DNA of 64,000 nt from Spirochaetia bacterium (GTDB taxonomy: Bacteria; Spirochaetota; Spirochaetia; SZUA-6; Bin103): the NCBI GenBank assembly GCA_965208575.1, contig CBDBOV010000002.1, positions 672,001-736,000 of the forward strand, written 5' to 3'. Positions 31,197 through 45,890 of the stretch are shown in pieces. The notes under the pieces are model-generated. The model was given only the letters and a program-made list of their open reading frames with translations, was not told where the DNA came from and made no database searches. Position 1 is the stretch's first letter. The number at the start of each line of letters is the position of its first letter. A program made the translations under genes and the position numbers.

Positions 31197-31255
31197 CGCG
31201 CGCGGGTGGGTGCAATTGCTTGCGAGCGCCGGGTACTGCTGCTACCCTTGATCGC

Positions 31256-31612: not shown

Positions 31613-32058
31613 TCTTCGCCGCCGAAGCGCGTGCTCAACTGCGGCAGGTCGCTCTCATCCACGAGCGCATCGACCACCGCGAGCGGGAGAGCGGCGTGGC
31701 CGGACTGGAGAGTCTCGCCTACCAGCTTCACAACCTGTACGGCGCGATCGAGGAGTTGTTCGAGCTGGTGGCGGCGGCGTTCGAGAATCAGCTTCAGGGT
31801 GGAGGCGGGTACCACATCGAGTTGCTCAGACGCATGACGATAGCCGTCGACGGCGTCCGTCCGCGGGTAATTTCTGATCACACCCTGGCGGCGCTCAACT
31901 CATTGCGCGGCTTTCGCCACGTGTTTCGTCATGCCTACGGCGGCGGACTGGATCGGCGCAGGATCGCCCTGCTCGTCGAAGACGCGCGCGCGGTGCGCGA
32001 GCCGCTCGCCGCCGAGGTGCAGGCGTTCGTCGCTGCCGTGGCCCCCGCCGATTCCTGA
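31591..32058 (+). CDS. HEPN (HepT-like) ribonuclease toxin
   Basis: LHNLYGAIEELF, YHIELL, FRHVFRHAY (Rx4H plus Tyr); overlaps the MNT gene. Confidence 0.85.
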   Translation: MDEARYVVFAAEARAQLRQVALIHERIDHRERESGVAGLESLAYQLHNLYGAIEELFELVAAAFENQLQGGGGYHIELLRRMTIAVDGVRPRVISDHTLAALNSLRGFRHVFRHAYGGGLDRRRIALLVEDARAVREPLAAEVQAFVAAVAPADS

Positions 32059-32091
32059 CCGCCGGAGTGAAGATCGCACGGGAACAGGCCA

Positions 32092-32712
32092 TTGCGTAGC
32101 CGGCACATGGCGATGGCACTTGAAGAGTTCCGGCTCCTGAAGAGGAAACCGGGGTGGAAGTACGAGTATTGGAACGGTGAGGCACACATCTCGCCGGGAC
32201 ATCGGGTGGTCACCATGTCCCTCGACATAGAGCCACGCTCCTGCCAAAGCCCTTGTCAGATCGGGCCCGTGGTGACGCGGCGCGAAGCGGAGTTGATTGC
32301 CGCCTACTTGGCGGCCTTCAGAGACACCATCGAGTACTGCGATTGGGAGGAGGAGAGAATCGCCGATTCGGCCAACAAGAGCGTCGTCGAATTTCTTGCC
32401 GGTGAACGCGGCGATCCTCTCGCGGCGTCACGCCTGGCTCTGATCTGCCATCCCGAAGCCGACGGGAGAGTGGTGGGTGGTGCTGCCCTCCTGGTCGAAA
32501 CGGATGACAAATGTCCACTCTTGGATATGCTCTTCGTTGCTCCGGAGTGGCAACGCCGGGGGATAGCCACCGCCTTGGTGTCGTCGGCGGTCAATCAATT
32601 GCACGGCCGGGGATACAGGCGTCTGAAGAGCCGGTACATGCTCGGCAACGACAAGAGCCGGGCCTGGCACGAAGGGTTCGGATTCTCTCCCATCCCCGAA
32701 GGTAGACCATAG
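32092..32712 (+). CDS. GNAT acetyltransferase
   Basis: LFVAPEWQRRGIAT motif A, N...WHEGFGF. Confidence 0.85.
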   Translation: MRSRHMAMALEEFRLLKRKPGWKYEYWNGEAHISPGHRVVTMSLDIEPRSCQSPCQIGPVVTRREAELIAAYLAAFRDTIEYCDWEEERIADSANKSVVEFLAGERGDPLAASRLALICHPEADGRVVGGAALLVETDDKCPLLDMLFVAPEWQRRGIATALVSSAVNQLHGRGYRRLKSRYMLGNDKSRAWHEGFGFSPIPEGRP

Positions 32713-32836
32713 AGCCCCGCAGGGGTCCGAACGCCGGTAACAGCAGAACTGGCATGGCCGGAATCGACGACCGACAGCTTGCAGGAGCGCACGACTGGCG
32801 GCCAACTCCGCACGCGGCCACGGCGTGGAGGCGGCG

Positions 32837-35449
32837 CTACCGCGACGGCTCGGGCGGCGGAGCTGCTCCGTAGCCGTGGCACATGCGGTGGTGTGCCAGG
32901 CACGCGAGAGCCAGGTTCTCCGGCTCCGGGCCGCCCCCGTCGGCAACCGGCAGCAGGTGGTGGATCTGTAGCAGGTGGGACGAATTGCAGCGGCGACCGG
33001 TGAGCGGGTCCCGATAGCAGCAGCGCCCCCCGTCGCGCAGCCAGACGTGACGCCGGACAGCCGCCGGAATGGAGCGCCGCGGCGGCGACCGGCGCGGGCC
33101 GAGCGGAGCATCGCGGGTGCACTGCGGCGATGCTCCCCCCGGTGAGCCGCCCGCCCCACGCGCAGGCGGCACGCCGCTGACCAACTTCGGCGCCGCAGCC
33201 GTGGCCAACCGGATCGGCATGGCACCAGTACCGTCGGCGGAGCCGTCGCCGGCCAACTTCGGCGCCGCAGTCGTGGCCGGCCGGATCGGCGTGGCACCAG
33301 CGCCGTCGGCGGGGCCGCCGCTGACCAACTTCGGCGCCGCAGTCGTGGCCGGCCGGATCGGCGTGGCACCAGCGCCGTCGGCGGGGCCGCCGCTGACCAA
33401 CTTCGGCGCCGCAGTCGTGCCCGGCCGGATCGGCGTGGCACCGGCGCCGTCGGCGGGGCCGCCGCCGGCCAACTTCGGCGCCGCAGCCGTTGCCGGCCGG
33501 ATCGGCGTCGCATCAGCGCCATCGGCGGGGCCGCCGCCGGCGCTCCGACCCTCCGGCGCCGCAGCAACGGCGGGCGGGGCCGAAGCAGCGCCACCCGCGC
33601 GGGTGCCAACTGCCCGTGTACCGCCCGCCGGGGCGGCGGGCGCAACGCCGCGCACCGGGCGAGCGTTGGGGGACGCCGCCGCCCGCGGCAGCTCCCCGGC
33701 GGACGCGGGCGCGCCCCGTGGCGCCGGAGTATCGCCGCCCCCACCCACGGCGGCCGCCGCCACGACCGAGGGTGTGCTGGTCCGCTCCCGCCGCGACGAT
33801 GCTGCCGTGCCGCCCGAACGCCCCCGCCTGCCACCGCCGCCGCGCGGGTCGTGCCGCGCCACCGCCTCGCGCACCAGCCGCGCCACCAAGTCCCCCCACG
33901 ACATGCGCGGGTCGACGTGCGACAGCCAGTTCTTCAGTTGGCGCAGTCCCTGCTCGCACTCCTGGTCGATGCTCACCTTCAACGTGTAGCGGTCCGGCGC
34001 CACCGCACGCAGCGTGTCGCGCGGCGGCGCCACCTGCGGAGCGGCACTGGCCAGCAGGCCGGCGACCTGGCGCGTGGTCATGCCGGCGGCCTGCTCGATC
34101 AGCTCGCGCTGCCGCCGCGGGTGCAGCAGCGCGGCGGCGGACAACGGCCCGGCGGACCGCTCGGGGCTGGAACACGGTTCCGGGTTGGAACAAAGTTCCG
34201 GGTTCCGATCACCCCGCGACGGCGCCGGTGCGAGCGCAGCGGTGCGCCGCGGCTCCGATGCGGCCACGACCGGCAACGGGACCGGCTCGGCGCCACTCGC
34301 CGGCGGTGGAAGTGGCGCGGCCGGGCCTTGGTCCGAGGAGGCCACGGCGGGACCGGGAGCGCGCAACGGTGCCCGTGCAGCCGCGTGGCTCGCCACCGGC
34401 ACCACCGGCGTGGTCGCCGCCTCGTTACCCGTGAGCCCGGGCCGCGGTACACGCCCCGGCGCCGCGGGCGGTGGCGCGTGCAGGGTGGTGGGCGTCGAAG
34501 CCGGTGCAGCGCCCGAGGTGGCGGCACTCGAGTCCAATCGGCCCACCGGCTGCGCACCCGCGGCTGCCGGGCCGGCACCGACTGCCGCCGAGTCGTCCGA
34601 CGACGGCCTGCAACGGTCGCTCTCCGCATGCCGGTCCCCGCGGCCTCCGGCGTCACCGGGCGACCGCGCCACCGGCCCGTCCGGCGGTCGGCTGCAGCCG
34701 TCGCTCACGGTGTGCCGGTCTTCGCGGCCCCCGGCGGCACGGGACGACCGCGCCGCCGAGTCGTCCGACGATGGCCTGCAACGGTCGCTCTCCGCATGCC
34801 GGTCGTCGCGGCCTCCGGCGTCACCGAGCGACCCCGCCACCGGCTCGTCCGACGATGGTCTGCAACGGTCGTTCCCGGTATGCCGGTCCCCGCAGCCCCC
34901 GGCGTCACCGAGCGCCCCCGCCTCCTGTTCGACGGCGGCCACGCCGGGCCGCGCCGATGCCGTCCCCGCCGCGGCACCGGCCATCCCCGCTCCCGACGCT
35001 TCGCCATCCTGGTCTCCCGCTCCGCCCGGCGCAGCAGGTAGCCCATGCAGACCTTGGCAGCGCTCCTGATCGACGGGCGCGCTCGCTCTCCTGCACTGGC
35101 GCTCGGCGGCGCCAAACGCGGTCTCCAACTGCGCCGCCGACGTCACACTCAGCTCGCCGCTGTGCAGCATGGCCCGCACCCAGCCATGCCGCCGGCACAG
35201 CCTCATGGTCTGAATACGCCGTTGCGCGGCCGCATCGGTGAAGCGCAACTCCCGCACCGCGTAGTCGAACAGGCTCGAGAACCCGCGCCGCAGCGCCAGC
35301 CCGCGACGGTCGATCTCGTCGAGATGGTCCAGGATGTGCACTTCGAGGCCGCGCTGGTTGGCCGCCAGGCGCCTGGTCTGCTCGAGGAGCTGCTGATCAC
35401 CGAGTGAGTTGAAAGGTCGTCTGCCGGTCCCGCCGGTCATGTTTAACAT
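32837..35449 (-). CDS. DUF222-like N-terminus / repeat linkers / C-terminal HNH endonuclease (870 aa)
   Basis: HLDEIDRRGLALRRGFSSLFDY N-domain; C-terminal VWLRDGGRC...C...IHHLLPVADGG...NLALACLAHH. Confidence 0.88.
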   Translation of the reverse strand: MLNMTGGTGRRPFNSLGDQQLLEQTRRLAANQRGLEVHILDHLDEIDRRGLALRRGFSSLFDYAVRELRFTDAAAQRRIQTMRLCRRHGWVRAMLHSGELSVTSAAQLETAFGAAERQCRRASAPVDQERCQGLHGLPAAPGGAGDQDGEASGAGMAGAAAGTASARPGVAAVEQEAGALGDAGGCGDRHTGNDRCRPSSDEPVAGSLGDAGGRDDRHAESDRCRPSSDDSAARSSRAAGGREDRHTVSDGCSRPPDGPVARSPGDAGGRGDRHAESDRCRPSSDDSAAVGAGPAAAGAQPVGRLDSSAATSGAAPASTPTTLHAPPPAAPGRVPRPGLTGNEAATTPVVPVASHAAARAPLRAPGPAVASSDQGPAAPLPPPASGAEPVPLPVVAASEPRRTAALAPAPSRGDRNPELCSNPEPCSSPERSAGPLSAAALLHPRRQRELIEQAAGMTTRQVAGLLASAAPQVAPPRDTLRAVAPDRYTLKVSIDQECEQGLRQLKNWLSHVDPRMSWGDLVARLVREAVARHDPRGGGGRRGRSGGTAASSRRERTSTPSVVAAAAVGGGGDTPAPRGAPASAGELPRAAASPNARPVRGVAPAAPAGGTRAVGTRAGGAASAPPAVAAAPEGRSAGGGPADGADATPIRPATAAAPKLAGGGPADGAGATPIRPGTTAAPKLVSGGPADGAGATPIRPATTAAPKLVSGGPADGAGATPIRPATTAAPKLAGDGSADGTGAMPIRLATAAAPKLVSGVPPARGAGGSPGGASPQCTRDAPLGPRRSPPRRSIPAAVRRHVWLRDGGRCCYRDPLTGRRCNSSHLLQIHHLLPVADGGGPEPENLALACLAHHRMCHGYGAAPPPEPSR
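33181..33540 (-). repeat. 72-bp coding tandem repeat, about 5 units (24 aa, GGPADGAGATPIRPATTAAPKL)
   Basis: Visible in the DNA and the translation. Confidence 0.9.
34585..34920 (-). repeat. 84-bp coding tandem repeat, about 4 units (28 aa, GDAGGRxDRHAESDRCRPSSDDSAA)
   Basis: Visible in the DNA and the translation. Confidence 0.85.
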
Positions 35450-35958
35450 GTCTTAAATATAACACTGGTCTGTAGATAGCACTTTCTTGCAGGTCCTCGA
35501 CCCGGTACCGGCAGCGCCCGTGGAGCGCGAATTGGCGGCTCCAGGGGCACGCGCTCGGCCACTTGACGGGCGCACACCATTGCCGGACTTCACGGCCCGC
35601 CAGGGGCCTTCAGCGGCAGCGGAAAAGTGCGTCAACCCCTGCGCCCGATTTTCTGCAGTTATTTTGGTGCAGGTCGAACTCCGGCCACCGCGGCACGCAG
35701 GAACCACCCCACGCCGCAAAGATGGTCCGACCCTCCCGGTACGTGAGCCCTGACGACCACCGGCGCCGCGGCAGCCTGCCCGGTCCCCCATCTGCTGCCG
35801 TGCCGACCGGAGCGGTGGGGTGAGACCGGTGCGTGCCGACTTCGTCAACCGCCACCACCGCCTTTCGCAATCGCACCGGCGCCCGCAGGTGCAAGAGGAC
35901 GCGTGTACCCCGATTGCGGTAGCATCGCGCCTGAGAGAGCGAGAGGGGGAGCATCGTC

Positions 35959-36396
35959 ATGAGCGAGTACATTCCGAGTCCGGCGCAGTGGGTGCGCGAC
36001 CAGGTGGAGCTGTATGAAGGCAGCGGCGGCACCGAGGGGCTGACCCTGCGCGATACCGGGTTGCCGGTGATCATCGTGACGCACACGGGCAACAAGACCG
36101 GCGCCGTCCGCAAGACGCCGCTGATGCGGGTGGCGGACGGTGACGGTTACGTGCTGATCGGATCGCAGGGAGGCGCGCCGAAGAATCCGGTGTGGGTGTA
36201 CAACCTGCGCGCCAACCCGGCGGTGACGATCCGCGACGCGACCTCGGTCCAGGAGATGCGGGCGCGCGAGGTGCACGACGACGCGGAGCGGGCGCGGCTG
36301 TGGGTCCTGGCCGTGGCCGCCTTTCCGCCGTACGCCGACTACCAGGACAAGACCACGCGCCGGATACCGGTGTTTCGAGCCGAACCCGTCGCCTGA
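35959..36396 (+). CDS. Deazaflavin-dependent nitroreductase (DDN)-family oxidoreductase
   Basis: GNKTGAVRKTPL, SQGGAPKNPVWVYNLRANP, YQDKTTRRIPVF. Confidence 0.9.
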   Translation: MSEYIPSPAQWVRDQVELYEGSGGTEGLTLRDTGLPVIIVTHTGNKTGAVRKTPLMRVADGDGYVLIGSQGGAPKNPVWVYNLRANPAVTIRDATSVQEMRAREVHDDAERARLWVLAVAAFPPYADYQDKTTRRIPVFRAEPVA

Positions 36397-36408
36397 TCCG
36401 GCGCCATC

Positions 36409-37239
36409 ATGGGATCGCTGGACGGCAAGGCCGCGCTGGTGACCGGGGCCGGCGGGCGCAACGGCATCGGCCGGGCGGTGGCGCTGCGGCTGGCGGAGGA
36501 CGGCGCGGACGTGGCGGTGAACGACCTGGTCGCCAGGCCGCGCGAGGGCAGCGACTGGGGAGGGCTGCCGGCGCTGGCCCGTGAGGTCGAGGCTCTGGGG
36601 CGCCGGTCGCTGGCCGTTACCGGCGACGTGGGCGACGCGGCGCAGGTGCAGGCGATGGTCGACCGGGTGGTCGACCAATTGGGCAGCCTGGACATCCTGG
36701 TGACGAACGCCGGCACTCCGGCCGGCCGCGACCGGGTGCCGATCGTGGAGTTGGAGGAGCAGCACTGGGACCGGGTGCTGCGGGTCAACGCCAAGGGCAC
36801 GTTCCTGTGCTGCCGGGCGGCGGCGCGGGTAATGATCGGCGCCGGTCGCGGCGGCCGCATCATCACCATGTCATCGGTTGCGGGCAAGCAGGGCCGGGCG
36901 CGGTTCGGCGCCTACGCTGCCTCCAAGTTCGCCGTCGTGGGGCTGACGCAGGCGCTCGCGCACGAGCTCGGCCCGCATGGCATCACCGTCAACGCGTTGT
37001 GTCCCGGCGTGATAGATACCGAGCGCTACCACGACATCGCGAACGCCACCCGCGACTCCGACACCTCCACCGAGGAGCGGCGCGCGCGCCTGTTCGCCGG
37101 CGCCGCCCGCGCCACGCCGCTGGGGCGGATCGGCAGCGCGGCCGACGTCGCCCGCGTGGCGGCGTTTCTGGCCGGCCCGGACAGCGGCTTCGTCACCGGC
37201 CTTGCCGTGCCGGTGGCCGGCGGCCTGTACATGCAGTAG
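36409..37239 (+). CDS. SDR-family oxidoreductase
   Basis: TGAGGRNGIG, NAG, YAASK. Confidence 0.92.
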   Translation: MGSLDGKAALVTGAGGRNGIGRAVALRLAEDGADVAVNDLVARPREGSDWGGLPALAREVEALGRRSLAVTGDVGDAAQVQAMVDRVVDQLGSLDILVTNAGTPAGRDRVPIVELEEQHWDRVLRVNAKGTFLCCRAAARVMIGAGRGGRIITMSSVAGKQGRARFGAYAASKFAVVGLTQALAHELGPHGITVNALCPGVIDTERYHDIANATRDSDTSTEERRARLFAGAARATPLGRIGSAADVARVAAFLAGPDSGFVTGLAVPVAGGLYMQ

Positions 37240-37281
37240 CCGCGCCGCGCCGCCCCGCGCCGCCGGCACCGTTCCGGTTGG

Positions 37282-37310
37282 TTGACCGGGGCGGGGTGCG
37301 TCGCTAAGGT
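37282..37310 (+). promoter_or_regulatory. Putative sigma70 promoter of the permease pair
   Basis: TTGACC-N17-TAAGGT, 26 nt before the start. Confidence 0.5.
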
Positions 37311-37336
37311 TCCCCGTTGTCGGGGATCGAAGCGCC

Positions 37337-38335
37337 GTGATTCAGTACTTCATACGCCGCGTCGGCTACATGCTGGTAACCCTGCTGGGAATATCGATCC
37401 TGGCGTTCGTCATCATCCAGGCGCCGCCCGGCGACTATCTCGACATCTACATCCAGCAGCTTCGCGAGCGCGGCATCGAGACCGACCGCGAGGAGCTGGC
37501 CGGCCTGGAGGCGCGCTACGGGCTCAACCAGCCGGTACTGGTCCAGTACTTCAAGTGGATGGGCAACCTGATCACGCTTGACCTGGGCAAGTCGCTGGCC
37601 ACGCAACAGAGGGTGATCGACATCCTCGGCGAACGGGTGCCGCTGACCGCCATGATCACGCTGCTCACCACCGTGTTCACCTTTGCCGTGGCGATACCGA
37701 TCGGCATCTACGCCGCCACCCACCAGTACTCGCTGACCGACTACTCGGTGTCGACGCTCGGCTTCATCGGCCTGGCGACGCCCAACTTCCTGCTCGCCCT
37801 GATCCTGATGTTCCTGGCCAGCCGCTGGCTGGGGGTCAGCATCGGCGGCCTGTACTCGCCGGAGATGGTGACCGCGCCGTTCAGCTTGGCCAAGCTGTGG
37901 GACCTGATCAAGCACCTGCCGGTGCCGATCATCGTGGTGGGCACCGCCGGAACCGCGGGGCTGATCCGCATCATGCGCGCCACCATGCTCGACGAGCTGC
38001 GCAAGCAATACGTGATCACGGCGCGGTCGAAGGGCGTCGAAGAGGGGCGCCTGCTGTTCAAGTACCCGGTGCGGATCGCGGTCAATCCCCTGGTCAGCAC
38101 CATCGGCTGGCTGCTGCCGGAGATCATCTCCGGGGAGACCGTCACCGCGGTCGTGCTGAGTCTGCCCACCGTGGGGCCGCTGCTGCTCACCGCCCTGCTG
38201 CAGCAGGACATGTACCTGGCCGGCAGCATCATCATGGTGCTGAGCCTGCTCGTCGTGATCGGGACGCTGATCTCCGACATGCTGCTGGCGGTGGTCGATC
38301 CGCGCATCCGGATGGAGCGCAAGGCGGCGGCGTGA
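37337..38335 (+). CDS. Peptide/nickel ABC permease (OppB/DppB-like)
   Basis: YGLNQP, YVITARSKG EAA loop, DPRIR. Confidence 0.92.
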   Translation: MIQYFIRRVGYMLVTLLGISILAFVIIQAPPGDYLDIYIQQLRERGIETDREELAGLEARYGLNQPVLVQYFKWMGNLITLDLGKSLATQQRVIDILGERVPLTAMITLLTTVFTFAVAIPIGIYAATHQYSLTDYSVSTLGFIGLATPNFLLALILMFLASRWLGVSIGGLYSPEMVTAPFSLAKLWDLIKHLPVPIIVVGTAGTAGLIRIMRATMLDELRKQYVITARSKGVEEGRLLFKYPVRIAVNPLVSTIGWLLPEIISGETVTAVVLSLPTVGPLLLTALLQQDMYLAGSIIMVLSLLVVIGTLISDMLLAVVDPRIRMERKAAA

Positions 38336-39468
38336 GCACGGGTCTCGACCTGCCGGTACCGGAAACCGCCGCCACCGACCAACGGCAGGAGCAGTACTTC
38401 GTCGCCTCCCAGTGGCAACTGGTGTGGCGCAAGTTCCGCCGCCACCACCTGGCGTTGCTGGGTATGAGCATCCTCGCCGTGCTCTACCTCCTGGCGGCGT
38501 TCGCCGAGTTCTTCGCCCCCTACGACAAGCTGCTGCGCAACACCGACCTTCGCTTCGCGCCTCCGCAGCGGATCCGGATTTTCGAGAACGGCCGGCTCAG
38601 CGCGCCCTTCGTGTATGGCTACACCACCGAGCGCAACCCGGAGACCTTCCGCGAGGAGTTCACGGTCGACGAGAGTCAGCGGTTCCGCATCGGCCTGTTC
38701 GTGCGCGCCGGCGAGTACCGCCTGTGGGGCCTGTTCAAGACCGACCTGCACTTTTTCGGCACCCGCGACGAGGGCGGTTACGTGTACCTGCTCGGTACCG
38801 AGCGGCTCGGCCGCGACGTGTTGTCGCGCATCATCATCGCGTCGCGCATCTCGCTGAGTGTCGGCCTGGTAGGGGTGTTCATCGCCTTCATACTCGGCTG
38901 CCTGCTCGGCGGCCTGTCAGGCTATCTCGGCGGCTGGGTGGACAACACCATCCAGCGGCTGGTGGAGATCCTGATCTCGGTGCCCACCATCCCGCTGTGG
39001 CTGGCGCTGAGCGCCGCCCTGCCCGCGACCTGGTCGATCGTTGCCGTCTACTTCGGCATCACGGTGATCCTGTCGCTGATCGGCTGGACCGGTTTGGCGC
39101 GCGTGGTGCGCGGCAAGCTGCTGGAGGTGCGCGAAGCCGACTTCGTGCTGGCCGCGCGCATCGCCGGCAAGCGCGAGATGCCGATCATCCGCGAGCACCT
39201 GCTGCCCTCCTTCACCAGCTACCTGGTAGTGGACATGTCGCTGCGCATCCCGGGCATGATCCTCGGCGAAACCGCGCTGAGCTTCCTCGGTTTCGGCATT
39301 CGCCCGCCGGCGGTGAGCCTCGGGTCGCTGCTGATCGACGCCCAGAACGTGGCCACCCTCACCACCCACCCGTGGATGCTGATGCCCGCGCTGCTGGTGA
39401 TCGTGATCGTGCTGTGCTTCAACTTCGTCGGCGACGGCCTGCGCGACTCCGCCGACCCCTACCACTAG
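38332..39468 (+). CDS. Peptide/nickel ABC permease (OppC/DppC-like)
   Basis: GTGA overlap, LGTERLGRD, ETALSFLG, NFVGDGLRD. Confidence 0.92.
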   Translation: MSTGLDLPVPETAATDQRQEQYFVASQWQLVWRKFRRHHLALLGMSILAVLYLLAAFAEFFAPYDKLLRNTDLRFAPPQRIRIFENGRLSAPFVYGYTTERNPETFREEFTVDESQRFRIGLFVRAGEYRLWGLFKTDLHFFGTRDEGGYVYLLGTERLGRDVLSRIIIASRISLSVGLVGVFIAFILGCLLGGLSGYLGGWVDNTIQRLVEILISVPTIPLWLALSAALPATWSIVAVYFGITVILSLIGWTGLARVVRGKLLEVREADFVLAARIAGKREMPIIREHLLPSFTSYLVVDMSLRIPGMILGETALSFLGFGIRPPAVSLGSLLIDAQNVATLTTHPWMLMPALLVIVIVLCFNFVGDGLRDSADPYH

Positions 39469-40115
39469 GCGCCCGGGACGAAGGTGAGGTAGCGCAGCAG
39501 GGTGCCGGCCAGCGCCATGAGCCGGGAGAACACCGGTACGCCGACGATGCCGAGCAGGATCAGCCCGAGCAGCAGGTAGGAGCCGAAGCGCGCGTTGTAG
39601 TGGCGGTAGGCGTCGGCGGCGCGCGCCGGCAGCAGGTGGGGCAGGATGTAATGGCCGTCGAGCGGGCCGAGCGGGATCAGGTTGAACAGCATCAGCAGCA
39701 GGTTGACCCGCGCGAGCAGCACGAAGAAGGTGACCGGCCCCTCGGCAAAGAACAGGTCCACGCCGGCGGCGCGCAGCAGCAGGAACAGGTTCCAGGTAAG
39801 CACGGCGAGCAGCAGGTTGGCGGCCGGGCCGGCGGCGGCAATCCACAGATCGGCGCGCGGAGTGCGGAAGTTGCGCGGGTCGGTGGGCACCGGGCGGGCG
39901 TAGCCGAAGCCGACCAGGACCACCATCGCCAGGCCCATCGGATCGATGTGGCGCACCGGGTTGAGGGTGAGCCGGCCCGCGTACTCGGCGGTGCGGTCGC
40001 CGTTCAGCTTGGCCACGTAGGCGTGGCCGAATTCGTGCACCGACAGCGATGCGATCAGCGCCGCCACCAGGAGCCCGAACAGCAGGACCTCGCCCCGAAA
40101 CAACAGCTCGATCAT
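39465..40115 (-). CDS. Site-2 protease (M50) family protein
   Basis: HEFGH, AAGPAAN, FNLIPLGPLDG. Confidence 0.92.
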   Translation of the reverse strand: MIELLFRGEVLLFGLLVAALIASLSVHEFGHAYVAKLNGDRTAEYAGRLTLNPVRHIDPMGLAMVVLVGFGYARPVPTDPRNFRTPRADLWIAAAGPAANLLLAVLTWNLFLLLRAAGVDLFFAEGPVTFFVLLARVNLLLMLFNLIPLGPLDGHYILPHLLPARAADAYRHYNARFGSYLLLGLILLGIVGVPVFSRLMALAGTLLRYLTFVPGA

Positions 40116-40243
40116 CGCGACTCACGCCCCTCCAACAGCCAACGGCAAGACCTCGCCTCGAAACAGCAGCTCGATCATCGCGTCGCGAGCGCCTCCAACG
40201 TGAACGGCGGCCCCTCGCCGCGCAATAGCAGCTCGATCATCGT
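40085..40243 (-). repeat. Three tandem copies (62-63 bp period) of the S2P gene start, ATGATCGAGCTG...GGCGAG
   Basis: ATGs at 40240, 40178 and 40115, each followed by a MIELL(F/L)RGE-coding sequence. Confidence 0.85.
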
Positions 40244-41172
40244 GCGGCGGATGCCTCGAGGTCATGGCGCAGCACCACGTGGTGGTAGCGGTCCGCGGTG
40301 TACAGGGAGCCCGGCGCCCACGCCAGCGGCCCGATGATGGCGCGCCGGCCGAGGCTGACGTAGCCGGCGGCGATGGCGGGTTCGAAGGTGCCGTCCGGTG
40401 CGATCACCTGGATGCGGTAGTTGGAGCGGTCGGCCACGTACACGCGGTCGCGGTCGTCCACCACCAGCCCGGACGGGAAGATGAACGCGCCGCCGCTGCG
40501 CCCGCGCTCGCCCCACTCGGCCACGAACGCGCCCTCGGCGGTGAACTTCTGCACCCGGTGGTTGTGCGCGTCCGCGACCCACACGTTGCCGAACGAGTCC
40601 ACGGCAACGGCGCGCACCTCCCGGAACTCGCCGGGCCGTGGACCCTCGCGTCCCCAGGCGGCGAGGAAGGCGCCGTCGCCGGTGAAGCGCTGGATGCGGT
40701 GGTTGCCGGTATCGGCCACGTACACGCTCCCGTCCGGCGCCGCGGCGATCGCGCGCGGGCGGGCGAACTGCCCCGGACCGCTGCCGTTGCCGCCCCAGGT
40801 GGTCAGCAACTCGCCGGCGGCGCTGAACTTCTGCACCCGGTGGGTGGTGAACTCCACCGTGTAGACGGCCCCGTCGCCGCCGACGGCAAGCCCGCTCAGC
40901 CCGAGGAACTGCCCCGGCTCCGATCCCCAGGAGCCGAACGCGTCCACGAACTCGCCGTCGCCGGTCAGCTTCTGCACGCGGTGGTTGTCGGTGTCGGCGA
41001 CGTACAGAAACCCGGCGGCGTCGACGGCAATGTGCGCCGGGGTAAAGAACTCACCCGGCTCGAACCCGCGCGAACCGATAAGGGCTATCCTCTCGTCGTT
41101 GACCGCGCAACCCGCCCCGGCCACGACCAGGGCGAACAGCAGCAACAAACGGGTAGCGGCAATACGACGCAC
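40237..41172 (-). CDS. NHL-repeat beta-propeller lipoprotein
   Basis: Lipobox AGC; repeats YVADTxNHRVQKF...WG..G..PGQF. Confidence 0.9.
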   Translation of the reverse strand: MRRIAATRLLLLFALVVAGAGCAVNDERIALIGSRGFEPGEFFTPAHIAVDAAGFLYVADTDNHRVQKLTGDGEFVDAFGSWGSEPGQFLGLSGLAVGGDGAVYTVEFTTHRVQKFSAAGELLTTWGGNGSGPGQFARPRAIAAAPDGSVYVADTGNHRIQRFTGDGAFLAAWGREGPRPGEFREVRAVAVDSFGNVWVADAHNHRVQKFTAEGAFVAEWGERGRSGGAFIFPSGLVVDDRDRVYVADRSNYRIQVIAPDGTFEPAIAAGYVSLGRRAIIGPLAWAPGSLYTADRYHHVVLRHDLEASAAR

Positions 41173-41335
41173 GGATCAATGGTCCGCAAGCAGCGCGCCA
41201 CAGGCAAGCCGGTGGCCTCCGCTGGCTATTGAATTCGCACAGCGGACGGGGGCGGCGCCGTGGGCGAGCGGAGGACGATGACTGGTACCTGATTTCGGGA
41301 TGCGTTGGGGTGACGAGAATAAGGGACCGTGACGG

Positions 41336-42080
41336 TCAATCGCCGCCCCGGTGGTGCGCGAACCAGGGGATGGCGAAGCCTACCAGCGCCTGTGCGGACA
41401 GCAGCGTGCAACAGGCTTGGCCGGCCAATCCGGTGCGGGTAGTCGTGTCCTGCCGCCCAAAGGCAGCGCCTACCTCATCGAAGTCGTGTTCATCAATGTC
41501 GGGCTCGCGGTAACTCACCCATCGCCGGACCCCGTCGACCAGGACCGGCGCGCCGGCCGGCTTGGTCTCCTGGTGGTCGCCGAGCGCGCGCCGTTCGGCA
41601 AAATGCAGCATGGTGTTGGTCCGGTGCCCGACCTTGCGCCCGACCCCCAGGAGCAAGACGTGGCCACCCAAGTCGTGGACCACCGACAGAGGCGATCCTT
41701 CGCCCATCGGATCCTCAAGCCGCTGGGCGGCGACGATCGGTGCCGCGTACCGCCCGAGGGCCGCGAACGAACAGGACGGATGATTGCTGCGAACCGCATC
41801 TGGCCAGGTACGGAATAACTCCGGGATAACGCCGATGAAGGTCGTGGGAGTGACGGCGGCGTCGAACGCCGGCATCGTCGCTCGGATCATCTCCCGCCAG
41901 GCAGACGGCACCGGCGGATTCTCCCATCCCGCCGGGTCGGACAGGCCCGTGGAATGAGCGGGCATGACTATGGTGCCGGTCGTGCCTACTGCCTGCAGCA
42001 GCGCCCGGATCACGGCAACCGGCCCGCCGCAGACCCAGCCGATGGCGCTCAACGAGGAGTGGACCAGCACGACCATCCCT
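41336..42080 (-). pseudogene. AAC(3)/YokD-family N-acetyltransferase, 5'-truncated at the element boundary
   Basis: Begins at GMVVLVHSSLSAIGWVCGG; GTIVMP, RSNHPSCSF, NTMLHFAE; the usual N-terminal segment is replaced by element DNA. Confidence 0.75.
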
Positions 42081-42288
42081 CTGCACCAAAAAAACTGCAG
42101 AAAATCGGGCGCAGGGGTTGACGCACTTTTCCGCTGCCGCTGAAGGCCCCTGGCGGGCCGTGAAGTCCGGCAATGGTGTGCGCCCGTCAAGTGGCCGAAC
42201 GCGTGCCCCAGGAGCCGCCAATTCGCGCCCCACGGGCGCTTCCGGGACCGGGTCGAGGACCTGCAAAAAAGTGCTATCTACAGTCCAG

Positions 42289-42306
42289 TGGTATATTTAA
42301 GGTATG
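42289..42306 (+). promoter_or_regulatory. Extended -10 promoter (TGnTATATT) 6 nt before the ATG; probably leaderless
   Basis: TATATT at 42292-42297; same motif and spacing in copy 1 (35456-35464, minus strand); no Shine-Dalgarno sequence. Confidence 0.55.
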
Positions 42307-44811
42307 ATGAACATGACCGGCGGGACCGGCAGACGACCCTTCAGCTCACTCGGCGATCAGCAGCTCCTGGAGCAGACCCGGCGTCTGGCGGCCAACCAGC
42401 GCGGCCTCGAAGTGCACATCCTGGACCATCTCGACGAGATCGACCGTCGCGGGCTGGCGCTGCGGCGCGGGTTCTCGAGCCTGTTCGACTACGCGGTGCG
42501 GGAGTTGCTGTTCACCGATGCGGCCGCGCAACGGCGTATTCAGACCATGAGGTTGTGCCGGCGGCATGGCTGGGTGCGGGCGATGCTGCACAGCGGCGAG
42601 TTGAGTGTGACGTCGGCGGCGCAGTTGGAGACCGCGTTTGGCGCCGCCGAGCGGCAGTGCCGGAGAGCGAGCGCGACCGTCGATCAGGAGCGCTGCCAAG
42701 GTCTGCATGGGCTGCCTGCTGCGCCGGGCGAAGCGGGAGACCAGGATGGCGAAGCGTCGGGAGCGGGGATGGCCGGTGCCGCGGCGGGGACGGCATCGGC
42801 GCCGCCCGGCGTGGCCGCCGTCGACCAGGAGGCGCGGTCGCTCGGTGACGCCGGAGGCTACGGGGCCCGGCACACCGAGAGCGACCGTTGCAGCCGACCG
42901 CCGGACGAGCCGGCGGCGCGGTCGCTCGGTGACACCGGCCACGGGGACCGGCATGCGGAGAGCGACCGTTGCAGCCCATCGTCGGACGACTCGGCGGCAG
43001 TCGGTGCCCGCCCGGCAGCGGCGGGTGCGCAGCCGGTGAGCCGATTGGACTGGAGTGCCGCCACCTCGGGCGCTGCACCGGCTTCGACGGCCGCCACGCG
43101 GCACGCGCCACCGCCTGCGGCGCCGGGGCGTGTACCGCGGCCCGGGCTCACGGGCTACGAGGCGGCGGCCACGCCGGTGGTGCCGGCGGCGAGCCACGCC
43201 GCTGCGCAGCACCTCGGCGCCCGGCATGGCGATGCGCTGCCGGCACGGCGGGAGCCGAGCGGAGCCGCCTGGCACTGTCCGGCACCCGTGCGCGCTCCCG
43301 GTGTCGCCGTGGCCTCCTCGGACCAGGGCCCGGCGGCGCCACTTCCGCCGCCGACGAGTGGCGCCGAGCCGGAACCGTTGCCGGTCGTGGCCGCACCGGC
43401 GCCGTCGCGGGGTGATCGGAACCCGGAACGGTGTTCCAACCCGGAACCGTGTTCCGGCCCGAAGCGGCCCGCCGGGCCGGTGTCGGCCGCCGCGCTGCTG
43501 CACCCGCGGCGCCAGCGCGAGCTGATCGAGCAGGCCGCCGGCATGACCACGCGCCAGGTCGCCGGCCTGCTGGCCAGTGCCGCTCCCCAGGTGGTGCCGC
43601 CGCGCGACACGCTGCGCGCGGTGGCGCCGGACCGCTACACCTTGAAGGTGAGCATCGACCAGGAGTGCGAGCAGGGGCTGCGCCAACTGAAGGACCTGCT
43701 GTCGCACGTCGACCCGCGCATGTCGTGGGGGGACCTGGTGGCGCGCGTGGTGCGCGAGGCGGTGGCGCGGCACGACCCGCGCGGCGGCGGTGGCAGGCGG
43801 GGGCGTGCGGGCGGCACGGCAGCATCGTCGCGGCGGCAGCGGACCCGCACACCCTCGGTCGTGGCGGCGGCGGGCGCCGGGGAGCAACCGCGGGCCGCGA
43901 CGACCCGCAACGCTGCCGGGGTGCGCGGCGTTGCGCCCGCCGCCCCGACGGGCGGTGCAAGGGCAGTTGGCACCCGCGCAGGTGCCGCTGCTTCGGCCAC
44001 GCCCGCCGTTGCTGCGGCGCCGGAGGGTCAGAGCGCCGGCGGCGGCCCTGCCGACGGTACTGATGCCACGCCGTTCCGGGCGGCCACGGCTGCGGCGCCG
44101 CAGTTGGCCAGCGACGGCTCCGCCGACGGTGCTGATGGGACGCCGACCCGGCCCGCCACGAGTGCGGCGCCGAAGTTGGCCGGCGGCGGATCTGTCGACG
44201 GCGCTGATGCGACGCCGATCCGGTCGGCCACGGCTGCGCCGCCGAAGTTAGTCAGCGGCGGCTCCGCCGCCGGCGCTGGTGCGACGCCGACCGGGTCGGC
44301 CACGAGTGCGGCGCCGAAGTTGGTCAGCGGCGGCTCCGCCGATGGCGCTGGTGCCACGCGCATCCGGTCGGCTACGACTGCGGCGCCGAAGTTGGCCGGC
44401 GGCGGCTCCGCTGGCAGCGCTGATGCGACGCGGATCCGGCGGGCTACGGCTGCGGCGCCGAAGTTGGCCAGATGCGTGCGGCCTGTGCGTGGTGCGGGCG
44501 GCACGGCGGGGGGAGCATCGCCGCGGTGCACCCGCGATGCTCCGCTCGGCCCGCGCCGGTCGCCGCCGCGGCGCCCCATTCCGGCGGCTGTCCGGCGTCA
44601 CGTCTGGCGGCGCGACGGGGGGCGCTGCCGCTATCGGGACCCGCTCACCGGTCGCCGCTGCAATTCGTCCCACCTGCTACAGATCCACCACCTGCTGCCG
44701 GTTGCCGACGGGGGCGGCCCGGAGCCGGAGAACTTGGCTCTCGCGTGCTTGGCGCACCACCGCATGTGCCACGGCTACGGACCAGCTCCGCCGCCCGAGC
44801 CGTTGCGGTAG
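42304..44811 (+). CDS. DUF222-like N-terminus / repeat linkers / C-terminal HNH endonuclease (835 aa)
   Basis: Paralogue of 32837-35449; near-identical N-terminal, middle (RYTLKVSIDQECEQGLRQLK) and HNH domains. Confidence 0.88.
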   Translation: MMNMTGGTGRRPFSSLGDQQLLEQTRRLAANQRGLEVHILDHLDEIDRRGLALRRGFSSLFDYAVRELLFTDAAAQRRIQTMRLCRRHGWVRAMLHSGELSVTSAAQLETAFGAAERQCRRASATVDQERCQGLHGLPAAPGEAGDQDGEASGAGMAGAAAGTASAPPGVAAVDQEARSLGDAGGYGARHTESDRCSRPPDEPAARSLGDTGHGDRHAESDRCSPSSDDSAAVGARPAAAGAQPVSRLDWSAATSGAAPASTAATRHAPPPAAPGRVPRPGLTGYEAAATPVVPAASHAAAQHLGARHGDALPARREPSGAAWHCPAPVRAPGVAVASSDQGPAAPLPPPTSGAEPEPLPVVAAPAPSRGDRNPERCSNPEPCSGPKRPAGPVSAAALLHPRRQRELIEQAAGMTTRQVAGLLASAAPQVVPPRDTLRAVAPDRYTLKVSIDQECEQGLRQLKDLLSHVDPRMSWGDLVARVVREAVARHDPRGGGGRRGRAGGTAASSRRQRTRTPSVVAAAGAGEQPRAATTRNAAGVRGVAPAAPTGGARAVGTRAGAAASATPAVAAAPEGQSAGGGPADGTDATPFRAATAAAPQLASDGSADGADGTPTRPATSAAPKLAGGGSVDGADATPIRSATAAPPKLVSGGSAAGAGATPTGSATSAAPKLVSGGSADGAGATRIRSATTAAPKLAGGGSAGSADATRIRRATAAAPKLARCVRPVRGAGGTAGGASPRCTRDAPLGPRRSPPRRPIPAAVRRHVWRRDGGRCRYRDPLTGRRCNSSHLLQIHHLLPVADGGGPEPENLALACLAHHRMCHGYGPAPPPEPLR
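44035..44466 (+). repeat. 72-bp coding tandem repeat, about 6 units
   Basis: GCGCCGAAGTTGG-like motif recurs every 72 bp. Confidence 0.9.
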
Positions 44812-44972
44812 CGCTGCCTCCACGCGGTGGCCGCGTGCGGAGTTGGCCGCCCGTCGTGCGCTCCTGCAAGCTGTCTGCCGTCGATCCCGGCCATGCGAAT
44901 TCTGCCGTTTCCGGCGTTCGGACCCCACGTGGGGTTGAGCAACGGTCGGGCGGCGTGCCACGGTGACCGACG

Positions 44973-45890
44973 ATGAAGGCACGAACGATCGAATATCAAC
45001 CGGGCGGAGGGGTGCGGCTGGTGGAGACGGCGGTTGCCGATCCGGGGCCGGGCGAGGTGCAGGTGCGGGCGGCGGCGTGCGGCATCTGTGCGTGGGACCT
45101 GTACACCTACCGGCACGGCAGCGACGCCCCGAGCGCGGCGCCCGCGGGGCACGAGGGGATCGGCCGGGTGCTGAAGGTGGGTCGCGGCGTCAGCGGCCTC
45201 GCCGAGGGCGACGCGGTGGTGGCGCGCGGCTTCGCCACGGTGCACAACGTGGCCGCCGAACGCGCGCTGCGTATCCCGGATACCGACATTCCGCTCGAGC
45301 GCTGGATCGTGGAGCCGGTGAGTTGCGTGGTCACCGGTCTGGACCACACCCGCGCCCGTGCCGGCGACCGGGTGGCGGTGATCGGCTGCGGCTTCATGGG
45401 ACTGATGCTGCTGCAGGGGCTGGTTCGCTCGTGCGTCCATCACCTGGCGGCAATCGACGTGAACCGCGACCGGCTGACCCTGGCGCGCAGCTTCGGCGTG
45501 GACGCCGCCTACCATCCCGAGGACGAGGGGCTCGCCGGCGAGGAGCCGTTCGACTGCGTGGTCGATGCTTCCGGCGCGCAGGCGGGCCTCGACCTGGCGA
45601 CCGGCCTGCTCGGCCGCGGCGGCGTGCTCAACCTGTTCGGCTGGAACCACGGCCGGCCCACGTTCGCCGGCGACCGCTGGCACCTCGGCGGCTTCACGGT
45701 GGTCAACTCCGCCCCCGGTTCCCGGATCCGCGACACCTTCCCGCCCGCGATCCGGCTCATCGCCAAGCGCATCATCGACCTGGAACCGCTCATCACCCAC
45801 ACCGTCCCGCTCGACGCCTATCCCGACCTGCTCGCCCAGGTGGCGGCGGGCGACCCCGGCTACATCAAGGGGGTGGTCACTCTCGACTGA
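44973..45890 (+). CDS. Zinc-binding MDR dehydrogenase
   Basis: CGICAWD, GHEG, EP, VIGCGFMG. Confidence 0.88.
   Translation: MKARTIEYQPGGGVRLVETAVADPGPGEVQVRAAACGICAWDLYTYRHGSDAPSAAPAGHEGIGRVLKVGRGVSGLAEGDAVVARGFATVHNVAAERALRIPDTDIPLERWIVEPVSCVVTGLDHTRARAGDRVAVIGCGFMGLMLLQGLVRSCVHHLAAIDVNRDRLTLARSFGVDAAYHPEDEGLAGEEPFDCVVDASGAQAGLDLATGLLGRGGVLNLFGWNHGRPTFAGDRWHLGGFTVVNSAPGSRIRDTFPPAIRLIAKRIIDLEPLITHTVPLDAYPDLLAQVAAGDPGYIKGVVTLD

What the first reader, a model, noticed from the sequence alone, without database searches (positions are those of the whole stretch)
32713..44936. Transposase-less ~2.9 kb HNH element in two inverted copies with precise shared ends
Seen: 32713-35672 (-) and 42081-44936 (+) are homologous well beyond the ORF (about 220 nt 5', about 125 nt 3'), and similarity stops abruptly at the same points in unrelated neighbourhoods. 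The single ORF has a helical DUF222-like N-domain, a conserved middle domain and a C-terminal Cys/His HNH domain. I see no DDE, HUH, recombinase, RT or RuvC motifs, no terminal inverted repeats and no target duplication. Known: DUF222-HNH-type proteins (e.g. mycobacterial REP13E12) occur in multicopy, and to my knowledge their mechanism of spread is unresolved. Inference: this is a defined selfish or mobile unit whose HNH protein and flanking cis elements drive its own copying, possibly an undescribed class.
Basis: partly seen in the sequence, partly recalled or inferred. Interest (0 to 1): 0.88.

Follow-up and report, generated by a model that had tools for sequence, protein, structure and literature searches.

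The report
HNH-gene cargo transposon riding ISKra4 ends
The two inverted repeats are separate insertions of a many-copy transposable element that has no transposase gene but has ends like a neighbouring ISKra4-type insertion sequence, which probably moves it, and that carries a well-conserved HNH nuclease gene of unknown role.

Summary
The repeat is real, but its anatomy was misread. It is a transposon family, not a two-copy duplication. The genome holds 11 copies with an intact ORF plus fragments, and about 13 copies of a second family whose protein is about 47% identical.

Copy A runs 205 nt further, to 35877. Copy B lost its left end in a 424-nt deletion, and a close relative still has that stretch.

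Full-length copies are flanked by 9-bp target duplications. Twenty of 23 elements scored at least 8/9, against 3 of 506 control pairs. Their termini resemble those of a co-resident 1,438-bp ISKra4-family insertion sequence that has 10 identical copies and the same 9-bp duplication. A same-genus genome has a different terminal sequence, again shared between its HNH elements and its own ISKra4 IS.

Best reading, 0.7: a non-autonomous, mobile-insertion-cassette-like element moved in trans by an ISKra4 DDE transposase.

The three-domain HNH protein is under purifying selection (dN/dS 0.21-0.24). Its role is unknown. Dozens of intact copies persist in related genomes where no ISKra4 transposase was found, so an HNH-dependent route is not excluded.

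Verdict: new variant of a known kind, moderate interest.

The parts
32723..35877 (-). Copy A ('winA'): full-length family-1 HNH element, 3155 bp
   Evidence: Boundaries come from the alignment of 11 genome copies and a motif search. Flanks of relatives resume at window 35877-35894 and stop before 32723.
35852..35877 (-). Left terminus (IRL) of copy A. On the element strand it reads GGTGCGATTGCGAAAGGCGG...
   Evidence: Score against the IS-A terminus is 10, against a random 99.9th percentile of 10 and a maximum of 11 in 3000, so borderline for this copy. The c2b copy scores 12.
32723..32748 (-). Right terminus (IRR) of copy A. Its reverse complement on the element strand, which is the window + strand as printed, reads GGGTCCGAACGCCGGTAACAGC...
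   Evidence: Score against the IS-A terminus is 12 (c2b copy 16), against a random maximum of 11.
35673..35877 (-). 205-nt 5' module present in copy A and missing from copy B. It ends in a sequence resembling the right terminus.
   Evidence: The internal end-like match scores 11, a score reached by 38 of 2000 random 40-mers, so it is suggestive only.
32837..35449 (-). ORF of copy A, 870 aa. Order: N domain, low-complexity linker, middle domain, repeat linker, HNH domain.
32714..32722 (.). Target-site duplication of copy A, low-coordinate side (GCCCCGCAG)
   Evidence: Matches CGCCCGCAG at 35880-35888 in 7 of 9 positions, displaced by 2 nt from the terminus. This is an imperfect case.
35880..35888 (.). 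Target-site duplication of copy A, high-coordinate side (CGCCCGCAG)
42081..44925 (+). Copy B ('winB'): family-1 element that has lost its left terminus and 5' module
   Evidence: The orthologous copy in G006 keeps 424 nt more, including the left terminus.
42304..44811 (+). ORF of copy B, 835 aa, same domain order as copy A
44900..44925 (+). Right terminus (IRR) of copy B, ...GCCGTTTCCGGCGTTCGGACCC
44926..44934 (.). Surviving half of copy B's target duplication (CACGTGGGG). The other half was lost with the deletion.
   Evidence: In G006 the left flank CACCTGGGC and the right flank CACTTGGGG match in 7 of 9 positions.
33172..33609 (-). 72-nt (24-aa) tandem repeats in linker 2 of copy A. The matching array in copy B is at 43967-44542.
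   Evidence: families D1, D2. Copy number varies, and ORFs range from 804 to 1016 aa.
34584..35003 (-). 84-nt (28-aa) tandem repeats in linker 1 of copy A. Copy B has two 81-nt units at 42856-42998.
   Evidence: families D3, D7.
41336..42080 (-). Neighbouring Antibiotic_NAT-family (aminoglycoside 3-N-acetyltransferase-like) gene. It lost its 5' end in the same 424-nt deletion that truncated copy B.
   Evidence: Pfam PF02522, E 3.6e-80, with the match starting at residue 42 of the listed ORF. The G006 orthologue extends further.

Best explanation
The two repeats are independent insertions of a non-autonomous transposable element. It resembles a mobile insertion cassette: terminal repeats, a target-site duplication and no transposase gene.

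The element's termini are of the type used by ISKra4-family (Mutator-like DDE) insertion sequences in the same genome. The inferred mechanism is that the ISKra4 transposase, supplied in trans, binds these termini, excises or copies the element, and inserts it with a 9-bp staggered cut.

The cargo is one gene for a three-domain protein: a helical N domain, a middle domain and a zinc-binding HNH nuclease, joined by variable low-complexity linkers. The protein is kept functional by selection, but no role for it in movement is shown.

Copy A (32723-35877) is complete. Copy B (42081-44925) later lost its left terminus in a 424-nt deletion and should now be immobile.

Shown: multicopy status, termini, target duplications, absence of both insertions from relatives, an intact and selected ORF, and a matching co-resident IS.

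Inferred: that the ISKra4 transposase is the mobilising enzyme, and whatever the HNH protein does.
For: 1. Copy number. There are 11 copies with both ends, one 5'-truncated copy and fragments. A second family has 13 loci with all three domains at 45-51% amino-acid identity.
2. Target duplication. Twenty of 23 elements have at least 8/9 matching flanking 9-mers: IS-A 12 of 12, family 2 5 of 5, family 1 3 of 6. Only 3 of 506 mismatched flank pairs do.
3. A 1,438-bp IS is present as 10 full copies with 100% identical protein, plus two 570-bp deletion derivatives. It encodes an ISKra4-family transposase (NF033572, E 1.6e-58). Its termini read GGGTGCGAACGCCGAAAGCGGTAGC.
4. Terminal similarity. Family-2 termini score 21 against the IS-A terminus, and family-1 termini score 10-16. 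Random genomic 26-mers reach at most 11 in 3000 trials.
5. In genome G022, ISKra4 IS copies that are 99.9-100% identical end in GGGCGCACTTCCAA.... The HNH elements there carry the same termini, by my reading of the printed sequences for roughly 40 nt at one end.
6. In relative G001, locus L003 has the termini GGTGGGAATGCG... / ...GGCGTTCGCACC and a perfect 9-bp duplication, CGATGGGTT.
7. Copy A's site is unoccupied in G001, G006 and G007. A contig of run X5 joins window 32699 to 35872 (table 5c). Copy B, together with the adjacent gene, is absent in G001, G007 and G010.
8. The only family hits inside are to the HNH domain (NCBIfam's one hit, IscB, covers only that part); no transposase, RT or recombinase family was found.
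Against: 1. Family 1, the window's family, has the weakest case. Its two termini barely match each other (score 3-5, no better than random). Copy A's left end scores only 10. Three of its 6 full-length copies have imperfect duplications (7, 6 and 5 of 9). Its copies are 80-94% identical, so no recent movement is seen.
2. Of 17 HNH-positive genomes in the taxonomic family, 5 show no ISKra4 transposase at E <= 1e-20. Three of them are near-complete assemblies with at least 22 scored HNH matches each: G011, G012 and G072. A search with the IS-A protein at E <= 1e-3 finds nothing in G011 and G072, and only a 60-aa fragment in G012.
3. In G011 the major HNH subfamily (9 loci) has no ISKra4-type termini, and its homology starts about 50-130 nt upstream of the ATG.
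4. A 1.5-Mb Bdellovibrionales genome (G021) has 4 HNH elements with a perfect 18-nt inverted-repeat core (24 nt by my reading of the L056 ends). It has no ISKra4 hit and no other element with that repeat.
5. Purifying selection on the cargo across copies (dN/dS 0.21-0.24) is not expected of a mere passenger.
6. The IS-A transposase scores 198.8 bits, just under the curated cut-off of 205.
7. No transposition was observed directly.
Confidence: 0.7

Rival explanations
1. Autonomous HNH transposon. The HNH protein, using its N and middle domains to recognise the element ends, cuts and moves its own element. The resemblance to ISKra4 ends reflects shared ancestry of the ends, or capture of them.
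For: - The element holds a single ORF and no transposase.
- All 11 family-1 copies, and 11 of 13 family-2 loci, keep one open frame.
- dN/dS is 0.21-0.24 in the three folded domains, against 0.76-0.92 in the linkers.
- G011, G012 and G072 hold many intact copies without a detectable ISKra4 transposase.
- N and M domains in G011 are still under selection (dN/dS 0.17 and 0.26).
- Elements in G021 are bounded by inverted repeats without any ISKra4.
Against: - Termini and duplication length equal those of a co-resident DDE IS in two genomes, each with its own terminal sequence.
- Copies look recent (95-99.8% identical) only where identical IS copies coexist.
- To my knowledge (recalled, not from a call), HNH nucleases cleave DNA but none is known to perform strand transfer.
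- The G011 copies lacking a transposase also lack defined ends, which fits immobile remnants.
- G012 retains a 60-aa transposase fragment, which fits loss of the IS.
Confidence: 0.12
2. Accessory nuclease. The element is moved by the ISKra4 transposase, but the HNH protein raises the element's success. It might cut empty or donor sites so that repair copies the element back, a retention or homing role like that proposed for TnpB/IscB. Alternatively it might supply second-strand cleavage, as TnsA does in Tn7.
For: - The cargo is selected across copies.
- The gene and the termini have stayed together in two families that differ by about 50% in protein sequence, and across several genomes whose terminal sequences have diverged.
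- The HNH catalytic and zinc-binding residues are present in both window copies (read directly against alignment A1).
Against: - There is no direct evidence.
- IS-A spreads without this gene: 10 identical copies.
- The leader has no guide-RNA-like structure.
- The N domain shows no similarity to the transposase (hhalign probability 1%).
Confidence: 0.15
3. Ordinary segmental duplication, or a host gene family at conserved loci that is not mobile.
For: - Copy B is orthologous in the closest relative, G006.
- Family-1 copies are old (80-94% identical).
Against: - There are 11 or more dispersed copies with a common right end in unrelated flanks.
- They carry 9-bp target duplications.
- Copy A is absent in 3 of 3 relatives for which both flanks were found.
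Confidence: 0.02

Closest known systems
Mobile insertion cassettes (MIC231 of Bacillus cereus, moved in trans by the IS231A transposase; 'mic' elements). Definition taken from passages of PMC3913671.
   Same: Both are bracketed by inverted terminal sequences of the type used by a co-resident IS. Both lack a transposase gene and have a target-site duplication of the same length as that IS. In both, a cargo gene sits where the transposase would be.
   Different: - The partner IS family here is ISKra4 (Mutator-like DDE), not IS231/IS4.
- The cargo is always the same nuclease gene. It is conserved across two deep families and several genomes, and it is under purifying selection.
- The elements reach dozens of copies per genome.
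- Trans-mobilisation has not been tested here.
ISKra4 family insertion sequences (p-MULT 4 of Guerillot et al. 2014, PMC3942029; passages read)
   Same: The terminal sequence type (GGGTGC...) and the 9-bp target duplication equal those of the co-resident ISKra4-type IS. That paper notes four ISKra4 elements carrying extra genes of unknown function.
   Different: The window elements carry no transposase. Whether those four elements carry an HNH gene could not be checked, because it is in supplementary table S1 and supplements are closed.
REP13E12 / DUF222-HNH repeats of mycobacteria. Mentioned as a repetitive element in PMC10589994 (passages).
   Same: Both are multicopy genes for a helical N-terminal region followed by a C-terminal HNH domain, with no transposase.
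   Different: - The DUF222 model does not match the window proteins.
- hhalign against a true DUF222-HNH protein of this genome aligns only the HNH part.
- This genome also has 5 true DUF222-HNH genes. They lie in a separate 2.2-kb repeat with different ends.
IscB / OMEGA RNA-guided nucleases of IS200/IS605
   Same: An HNH domain in a gene carried by a transposable element, with a long 5' non-coding leader.
   Different: - No RuvC domain is present. The IscB model matches only the HNH part (20.9 bits against a cut-off of 175).
- There is no Rfam hit.
- The leader is no more stable than shuffles (z +0.57).
- Only 2 of 56 predicted pairs show compensatory change.
- From memory, not from a call: IS200/IS605 elements make no target duplication. 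These elements do.

Membership tests
Mobile insertion cassette (non-autonomous IS derivative with cargo) | Terminal sequences of the same type as those of an IS in the same host | tested here: met
   Family-2 ends score 21 against the IS-A terminus and family-1 ends score 10-16. The random maximum is 11 of 3000. A second genome with another terminal type shows the same pairing. For copy A's left end (score 10) the match is borderline.
Mobile insertion cassette (non-autonomous IS derivative with cargo) | No transposase gene inside the element | tested here: met
   Pfam and NCBIfam hit only the HNH part of the ORF. Seven of 7 alternative ORFs have no Pfam family. There is no similarity to the ISKra4 transposase.
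Mobile insertion cassette (non-autonomous IS derivative with cargo) | Target-site duplication of the length made by the partner IS | tested here: met
   A 9-bp duplication scoring at least 8/9 is found in IS-A 12 of 12, family 2 5 of 5 and family 1 3 of 6. Controls give 3 of 506.
Mobile insertion cassette (non-autonomous IS derivative with cargo) | Mobilisation in trans by the partner transposase | not testable with these tools
   Needs a transposition assay.
ISKra4 family (for the partner IS, not the window element) | Transposase matches the curated ISKra4 model | tested here: inconclusive
   IS-A gives NF033572 E 1.6e-58 over model positions 18-422, but 198.8 bits against a cut-off of 205. 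The second IS of the genome (IS-B) scores 230.2 bits, over the cut-off.
DUF222-HNH / REP13E12 family | DUF222 (PF02720) domain N-terminal to the HNH domain | tested here: not met
   No hit in P0001 or P0002 at E <= 0.1. A six-frame search of the genome at E <= 1 hits 5 other loci and none of the family-1 or family-2 genes. One distant homologue (P0226) has a sub-threshold hit, 22.4 bits against 24.4.
IscB/IsrB-type RNA-guided nuclease element | RuvC-like domain and a structured guide RNA next to the gene | tested here: not met
Group II intron or retroelement | Reverse transcriptase and intron RNA domains | tested here: not met
   No RT family and no Rfam match at E <= 1 in 31000-47000.

The most novel reading that the evidence does not exclude
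The three-domain HNH protein is not a passive passenger. It is a selfish nuclease that has formed a lasting partnership with ISKra4-type ends. It may promote its element's retention or copying by cutting DNA, and it may persist or even spread without the DDE transposase.

The basis is that genomes with 22 or more intact, selected copies have no detectable ISKra4 transposase. If true, this would be a new accessory or alternative nuclease module for DDE transposons. It would also give a handle on how multicopy N-domain-plus-HNH genes such as REP13E12 spread.
Probability: 0.2. Interest if true: 0.85.

Novelty: new variant of a known kind. Interest (0 to 1): 0.5.

Why it matters
The finding replaces a proposed 'new class of HNH-driven mobile element' with a testable and mostly conventional mechanism. 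That mechanism is a cargo-carrying, transposase-less element that borrows the ends of a Mutator-like (ISKra4) insertion sequence.

Three things are unusual:
- The cargo is one conserved nuclease gene kept under selection.
- The expansion is large, with dozens of copies per genome in one spirochaete family. Homologues, including multicopy ones, also occur in Bdellovibrionota.
- The cargo gene persists where the transposase is not found.

In the full-text searches I ran, no paper links ISKra4 with HNH genes (0 papers). The system offers a concrete way to ask what multicopy HNH genes do for, or to, the elements that carry them.

Tried and rejected
- **Structure.** It was accepted for alignment A1, but the job had not finished, so there is no model and no fold search.
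- **ESM Atlas.** The sequence is not held and the reading machine is closed.
- **Structured or guide RNA in the leader.** No Rfam hit, z +0.57, 2 of 56 pairs compensatory. Rejected.
- **Promoter scan of 41900-45100.** 0 sites found.
- **Defence-system reading.** PADLOC gives nothing for the window protein. PHROGs gives only HNH families.
- **PDB sequence search with the profile.** Only weak HNH-domain hits, E >= 0.02.
- **Composite-transposon reading of the 12-kb block between the two outward right termini.** The outer flanks GCCCCGCAG and CACGTGGGG do not match, each copy has its own duplication, and the genes between are syntenic in relatives. Rejected.
- **TPRT-like 5'-truncation series.** No RT is present. 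Copy B's truncation is a deletion that also removed flanking DNA. Rejected.
- **Homing-conversion idea** (the HNH element replacing the IS by recombination). By my reading of the printed ends, IS-A and family 2 share only about 25-40 nt at the termini. Not supported.
- **Base-precise empty sites for copies c2b and C1:237505.** The flanks map to non-adjacent or repeated places in relatives. No result.
- **Generic TIR+TSD scan of 63 distant loci.** 15 hits against 6 in the control, mostly noise.
- **The 205-nt 5' module as an independent MITE.** No free copies were found. Unsupported.
- **Expression.** No RNA holder is listed among the runs.
- The script failed because of a wrong search range. 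It was corrected. In one search the 'HNH(last 75)' row was mis-specified and is not used.
- **G084/G025.** The HNH termini there (GGGTCTTCAGGATTTCGTG...) share only their first 11 nt with one ISKra4 locus. Unresolved.
Full report
**1. The observation**

The window lies in a 6.5-Mb, 67% G+C genome. The two inverted homologous stretches are real. Each holds one long ORF: 32837-35449(-), 870 aa, and 42304-44811(+), 835 aa. Pfam sees only a C-terminal HNH domain in both (E about 1e-4, just over the cut-off). NCBIfam's only hit is the HNH part of the IscB model, at about 20 bits against a cut-off of 175.

Each protein has three conserved blocks separated by Ala/Gly/Pro/Ser-rich linkers:
- an N domain of about 130 aa;
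- a middle domain of about 100 aa;
- an HNH domain with its Cys/His ligands and its His...Asn...His residues in place.

The linkers contain 72-nt and 81-84-nt in-frame tandem repeats.

**2.

BLASTN of the two ends against the genome finds 11 copies with both ends, one 5'-truncated copy on contig C1, and fragments.

The right end...GGCGTTCGGACCC, is shared by 8 of 11 copies and is followed by unrelated DNA.

The left 'end' is different. Six copies, copy A among them, continue about 205 nt upstream to a common start, GGTGCGAATGCGAAAG.... Three copies stop part-way. Only copy B and one other copy lack this module. Copy A therefore spans 32723-35877 (3155 bp).

In the closest relative, G006 (94% identical here), the orthologue of copy B keeps 424 nt that copy B lacks. 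That stretch includes the left terminus and the true start of the neighbouring Antibiotic_NAT-family gene. So copy B's abrupt left edge is a deletion breakpoint. The breakpoint falls at an internal sequence that resembles the right terminus, but that resemblance is only suggestive, being reached by 38 of 2000 random 40-mers.

**3. Target duplications and termini**

I allowed a shift of plus or minus 1 nt at each boundary. Of 23 elements, 20 have flanking 9-mers matching in at least 8 of 9 positions (14 perfect). Only 3 of 506 mismatched left/right flank pairs do.

| Group | Elements with at least 8/9 |
|---|---|
| Co-resident IS ('IS-A') | 12 of 12 |
| HNH family 2 | 5 of 5 |
| HNH family 1 (the window's) | 3 of 6 |

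The other three family-1 copies score 7, 6 and 5. Copy A is the one scoring 6. Its duplication, GCCCCGCAG / CGCCCGCAG, is displaced by 2 nt.

A search for the terminal motif turned up a 1,438-bp element. It is present as 10 copies with 100% identical protein plus two 570-bp internal-deletion derivatives. Its 434-aa ORF matches the ISKra4 transposase model over its full length (E 1.6e-58), though at 198.8 bits it is just under the cut-off of 205. Pfam gives UPF0236.

On a semi-global score over the first 26 nt, the results against the IS-A terminus are:

| Sequence | Score |
|---|---|
| Random genomic 26-mers | mean 2.9, maximum 11 of 3000 |
| Family-2 termini | 21 and 21 |
| Family-1 termini, copy c2b | 12 and 16 |
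| Family-1 termini, copy A | 10 and 12 |

The two family-1 termini match each other poorly (3-5). So for the window's own family the 'inverted repeat' is degenerate. The case rests on each end resembling the IS terminus, together with the duplications.

A second ISKra4-type IS in the genome (IS-B, 10 copies, 29% identical protein) shares only GGGTGC at its tips.

ISKra4 is a Mutator-like DDE family (Guerillot et al. 2014, PMC3942029; passages read). My recollection that ISfinder lists 9-bp repeats and GGG ends for this group is from memory, not from a call.

**4. The same pairing elsewhere**

- In genome G022, which holds locus L113 and gives the same match coordinates as same-genus relative G010, ISKra4 IS copies 99.9-100% identical over about 1,520-1,526 bp end in GGGCGCACTTCCAA.... 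The HNH elements of that genome carry the same termini. By my reading of the printed ends, one end matches for roughly 40 nt. The HNH gene appears to lie in the opposite orientation to the transposase gene.
- In G001, locus L003 shows termini of the window's type and a perfect 9-bp duplication. However, the most abundant ISKra4 IS of G001 shares only about the first 9 nt.
- In G084 (same genome as G025), the HNH elements have a third terminal type. Its IS partner was not resolved.

**5. Presence and absence**

Flanks of copy A lie 28-594 nt apart in G001, G006 and G007, with no element between them. The intergenic DNA is too diverged for a base-precise empty site. A contig of public run X5 joins window 32699 to 35872 with four other letters between (table 5c). 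This was laid at 85% likeness, so it counts as moderate evidence.

Copy B plus the adjacent Antibiotic_NAT-family gene is missing from G001, G007 and G010, where the flanks lie 31-149 nt apart. It is present in G006.

The genes between the two copies (SDR, ABC permease, NHL-repeat protein) are syntenic in relatives. Each copy has its own duplication. The pair is therefore two insertions, not a composite transposon.

**6. The cargo protein**

- All 11 family-1 copies keep one open frame of 804-1016 aa.
- Eleven of 13 family-2 loci also keep one open frame.
- Among family-1 copies, dN/dS is 0.24, 0.22 and 0.21 in the N, middle and HNH domains. It is 0.76 and 0.92 in the two linkers.
- An exhaustive HMMER search with the N+M region of a family-2 protein finds 6,202 cluster representatives at E <= 1e-3 and 1,814 at E <= 1e-10. 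Many are compact proteins of 340-450 aa with the same three blocks.
- None of the 10 homologues tested reaches the DUF222 cut-off. One has a sub-threshold hit.
- The DUF222 model searched over the whole genome hits five other genes and none of these.
- hhalign against one of those true DUF222-HNH proteins aligns only the HNH part.
- The N domain is not similar to the transposase.
- PADLOC, PHROGs and PDB sequence searches add nothing beyond HNH.
- No structure could be obtained.

**7. What does not fit**

In a sample of 81 genomes of the order, the HNH family occurs in 17. All 17 are in the window's taxonomic family. It occurs in 0 of 61 genomes of the other families.

Of those 17, ISKra4 transposase is found in 12 (E <= 1e-20). 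The five without it are:
- G006 (180 contigs);
- G066 (2 HNH matches);
- G011, G012 and G072, three near-complete genomes with at least 22 HNH matches each.

A search with the IS-A protein at E <= 1e-3 still finds nothing in G011 and G072, and only a 60-aa fragment in G012.

In G011, nine loci of the major subfamily share homology only from about 50-130 nt upstream of the ATG, at a promoter-like TTGACT...TATACT, to a ragged 3' end. They have no ISKra4-type termini. Yet their N and M domains show dN/dS of 0.17 and 0.26 at dS of about 0.17.

A 1.5-Mb Bdellovibrionales genome (G021) has four HNH elements bounded by a perfect 18-nt inverted-repeat core (24 nt by my reading of the L056 ends). It has no ISKra4 hit and no other element with that repeat.

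These facts fit loss of the transposase after the expansion; the G012 fragment points that way. They equally leave room for a role of the HNH protein in its own persistence. Related genomes are not independent samples.

**8. Verdict**

The window's elements are best read as mobile-insertion-cassette-like, non-autonomous partners of ISKra4-type insertion sequences. The definition of 'mic' elements comes from passages of PMC3913671, and that of tIS from PMC9330008.

That they are transposons with target duplications is close to certain. That the ISKra4 transposase moves them I put at about 0.7. The cargo's function is unknown. My ranking is accessory or selfish nuclease over pure passenger over autonomous transposase.

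On prior publication, my full-text searches gave:
- ISKra4 with HNH: 0 papers;
- HNH endonuclease, terminal inverted repeats, non-autonomous and insertion sequence together: 2 papers, unrelated judging by the listing;
- ISKra4 with passenger: 6 papers listed, of which I read passages of one.

Noticed in passing
G000 contigs, e.g. C4:92504-93941 (locus L024); not in the window: A 1,438-bp ISKra4-type IS ('IS-A') is present as 10 copies with identical protein, including a tandem pair at C4:511218-514101, plus two 570-bp internal-deletion (MITE-like) derivatives. A second ISKra4-type IS ('IS-B', about 1.54 kb, 10 copies) has the termini GGGTGCATTC....
   Followed up: yes
G000 C2:556766-558993 (locus L145) and 4 further loci: Five true DUF222-HNH genes, four of them about 96-98% identical to each other, lie in a separate repeat of about 2.2 kb with the ends CCAGGACTATCCCACGCT and, as reverse complement, CAGGGCGATCCCATGCTG. 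Two copies seem to have 8-bp flanking repeats. The same ends bracket 1.4-1.5-kb elements (L143, L144) that encode a 355-383-aa protein with no family hit; there is only a faint Rpn-family match, E 0.011. This may be a second, independent case of an HNH gene riding shared ends.
   Followed up: partly
window 41336-42190(-) and 42081: The Antibiotic_NAT-family gene next to copy B lost its first ~90 nt of coding sequence and its upstream region in the 424-nt deletion. The longest ORF now starts at a TTG inside the element's leader. The gene and copy B together are absent from three relatives.
   Followed up: partly
window 40078-40261: Three tandem copies of a 59-63-nt unit (AACAGCAGGACCTCGCC...CTCGATCATCGCG...) lie next to, and at the 3' end overlapping, the start of the NHL-repeat gene. 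Identities to the first copy are 85% and 66% (family D6). Relatives differ in this stretch.
   Followed up: no
window 40237-41172(-): An NHL-repeat beta-propeller gene. Its 141-nt and 282-nt direct repeats (families D4 and D5) are the protein repeats.
   Followed up: yes
loci L049, L050, L053, L056 (genome G021): In a 1.5-Mb Bdellovibrionales genome, homologous HNH genes sit in elements of about 1.7 kb with an 18-nt perfect inverted-repeat core, TTCAGTAATTCGCTGACA (24 nt by my reading of the L056 ends). No ISKra4 transposase was found. Target duplications are unclear.
   Followed up: partly
G000 C2:~335150-335290, upstream of family-1 copy c2a: By eye, the flank of copy c2a looks like the reverse complement of a tRNA gene. 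This was not checked with a tRNA finder.
   Followed up: no
loci of G022 and G011 (e.g. L078, L092, L076; position about 2376): All these HNH loci carry an internal right-terminus-like sequence (CGGCGCATTTCCAAGCGG..., read as reverse complement) about 70-125 nt upstream of the ATG.
   Followed up: partly
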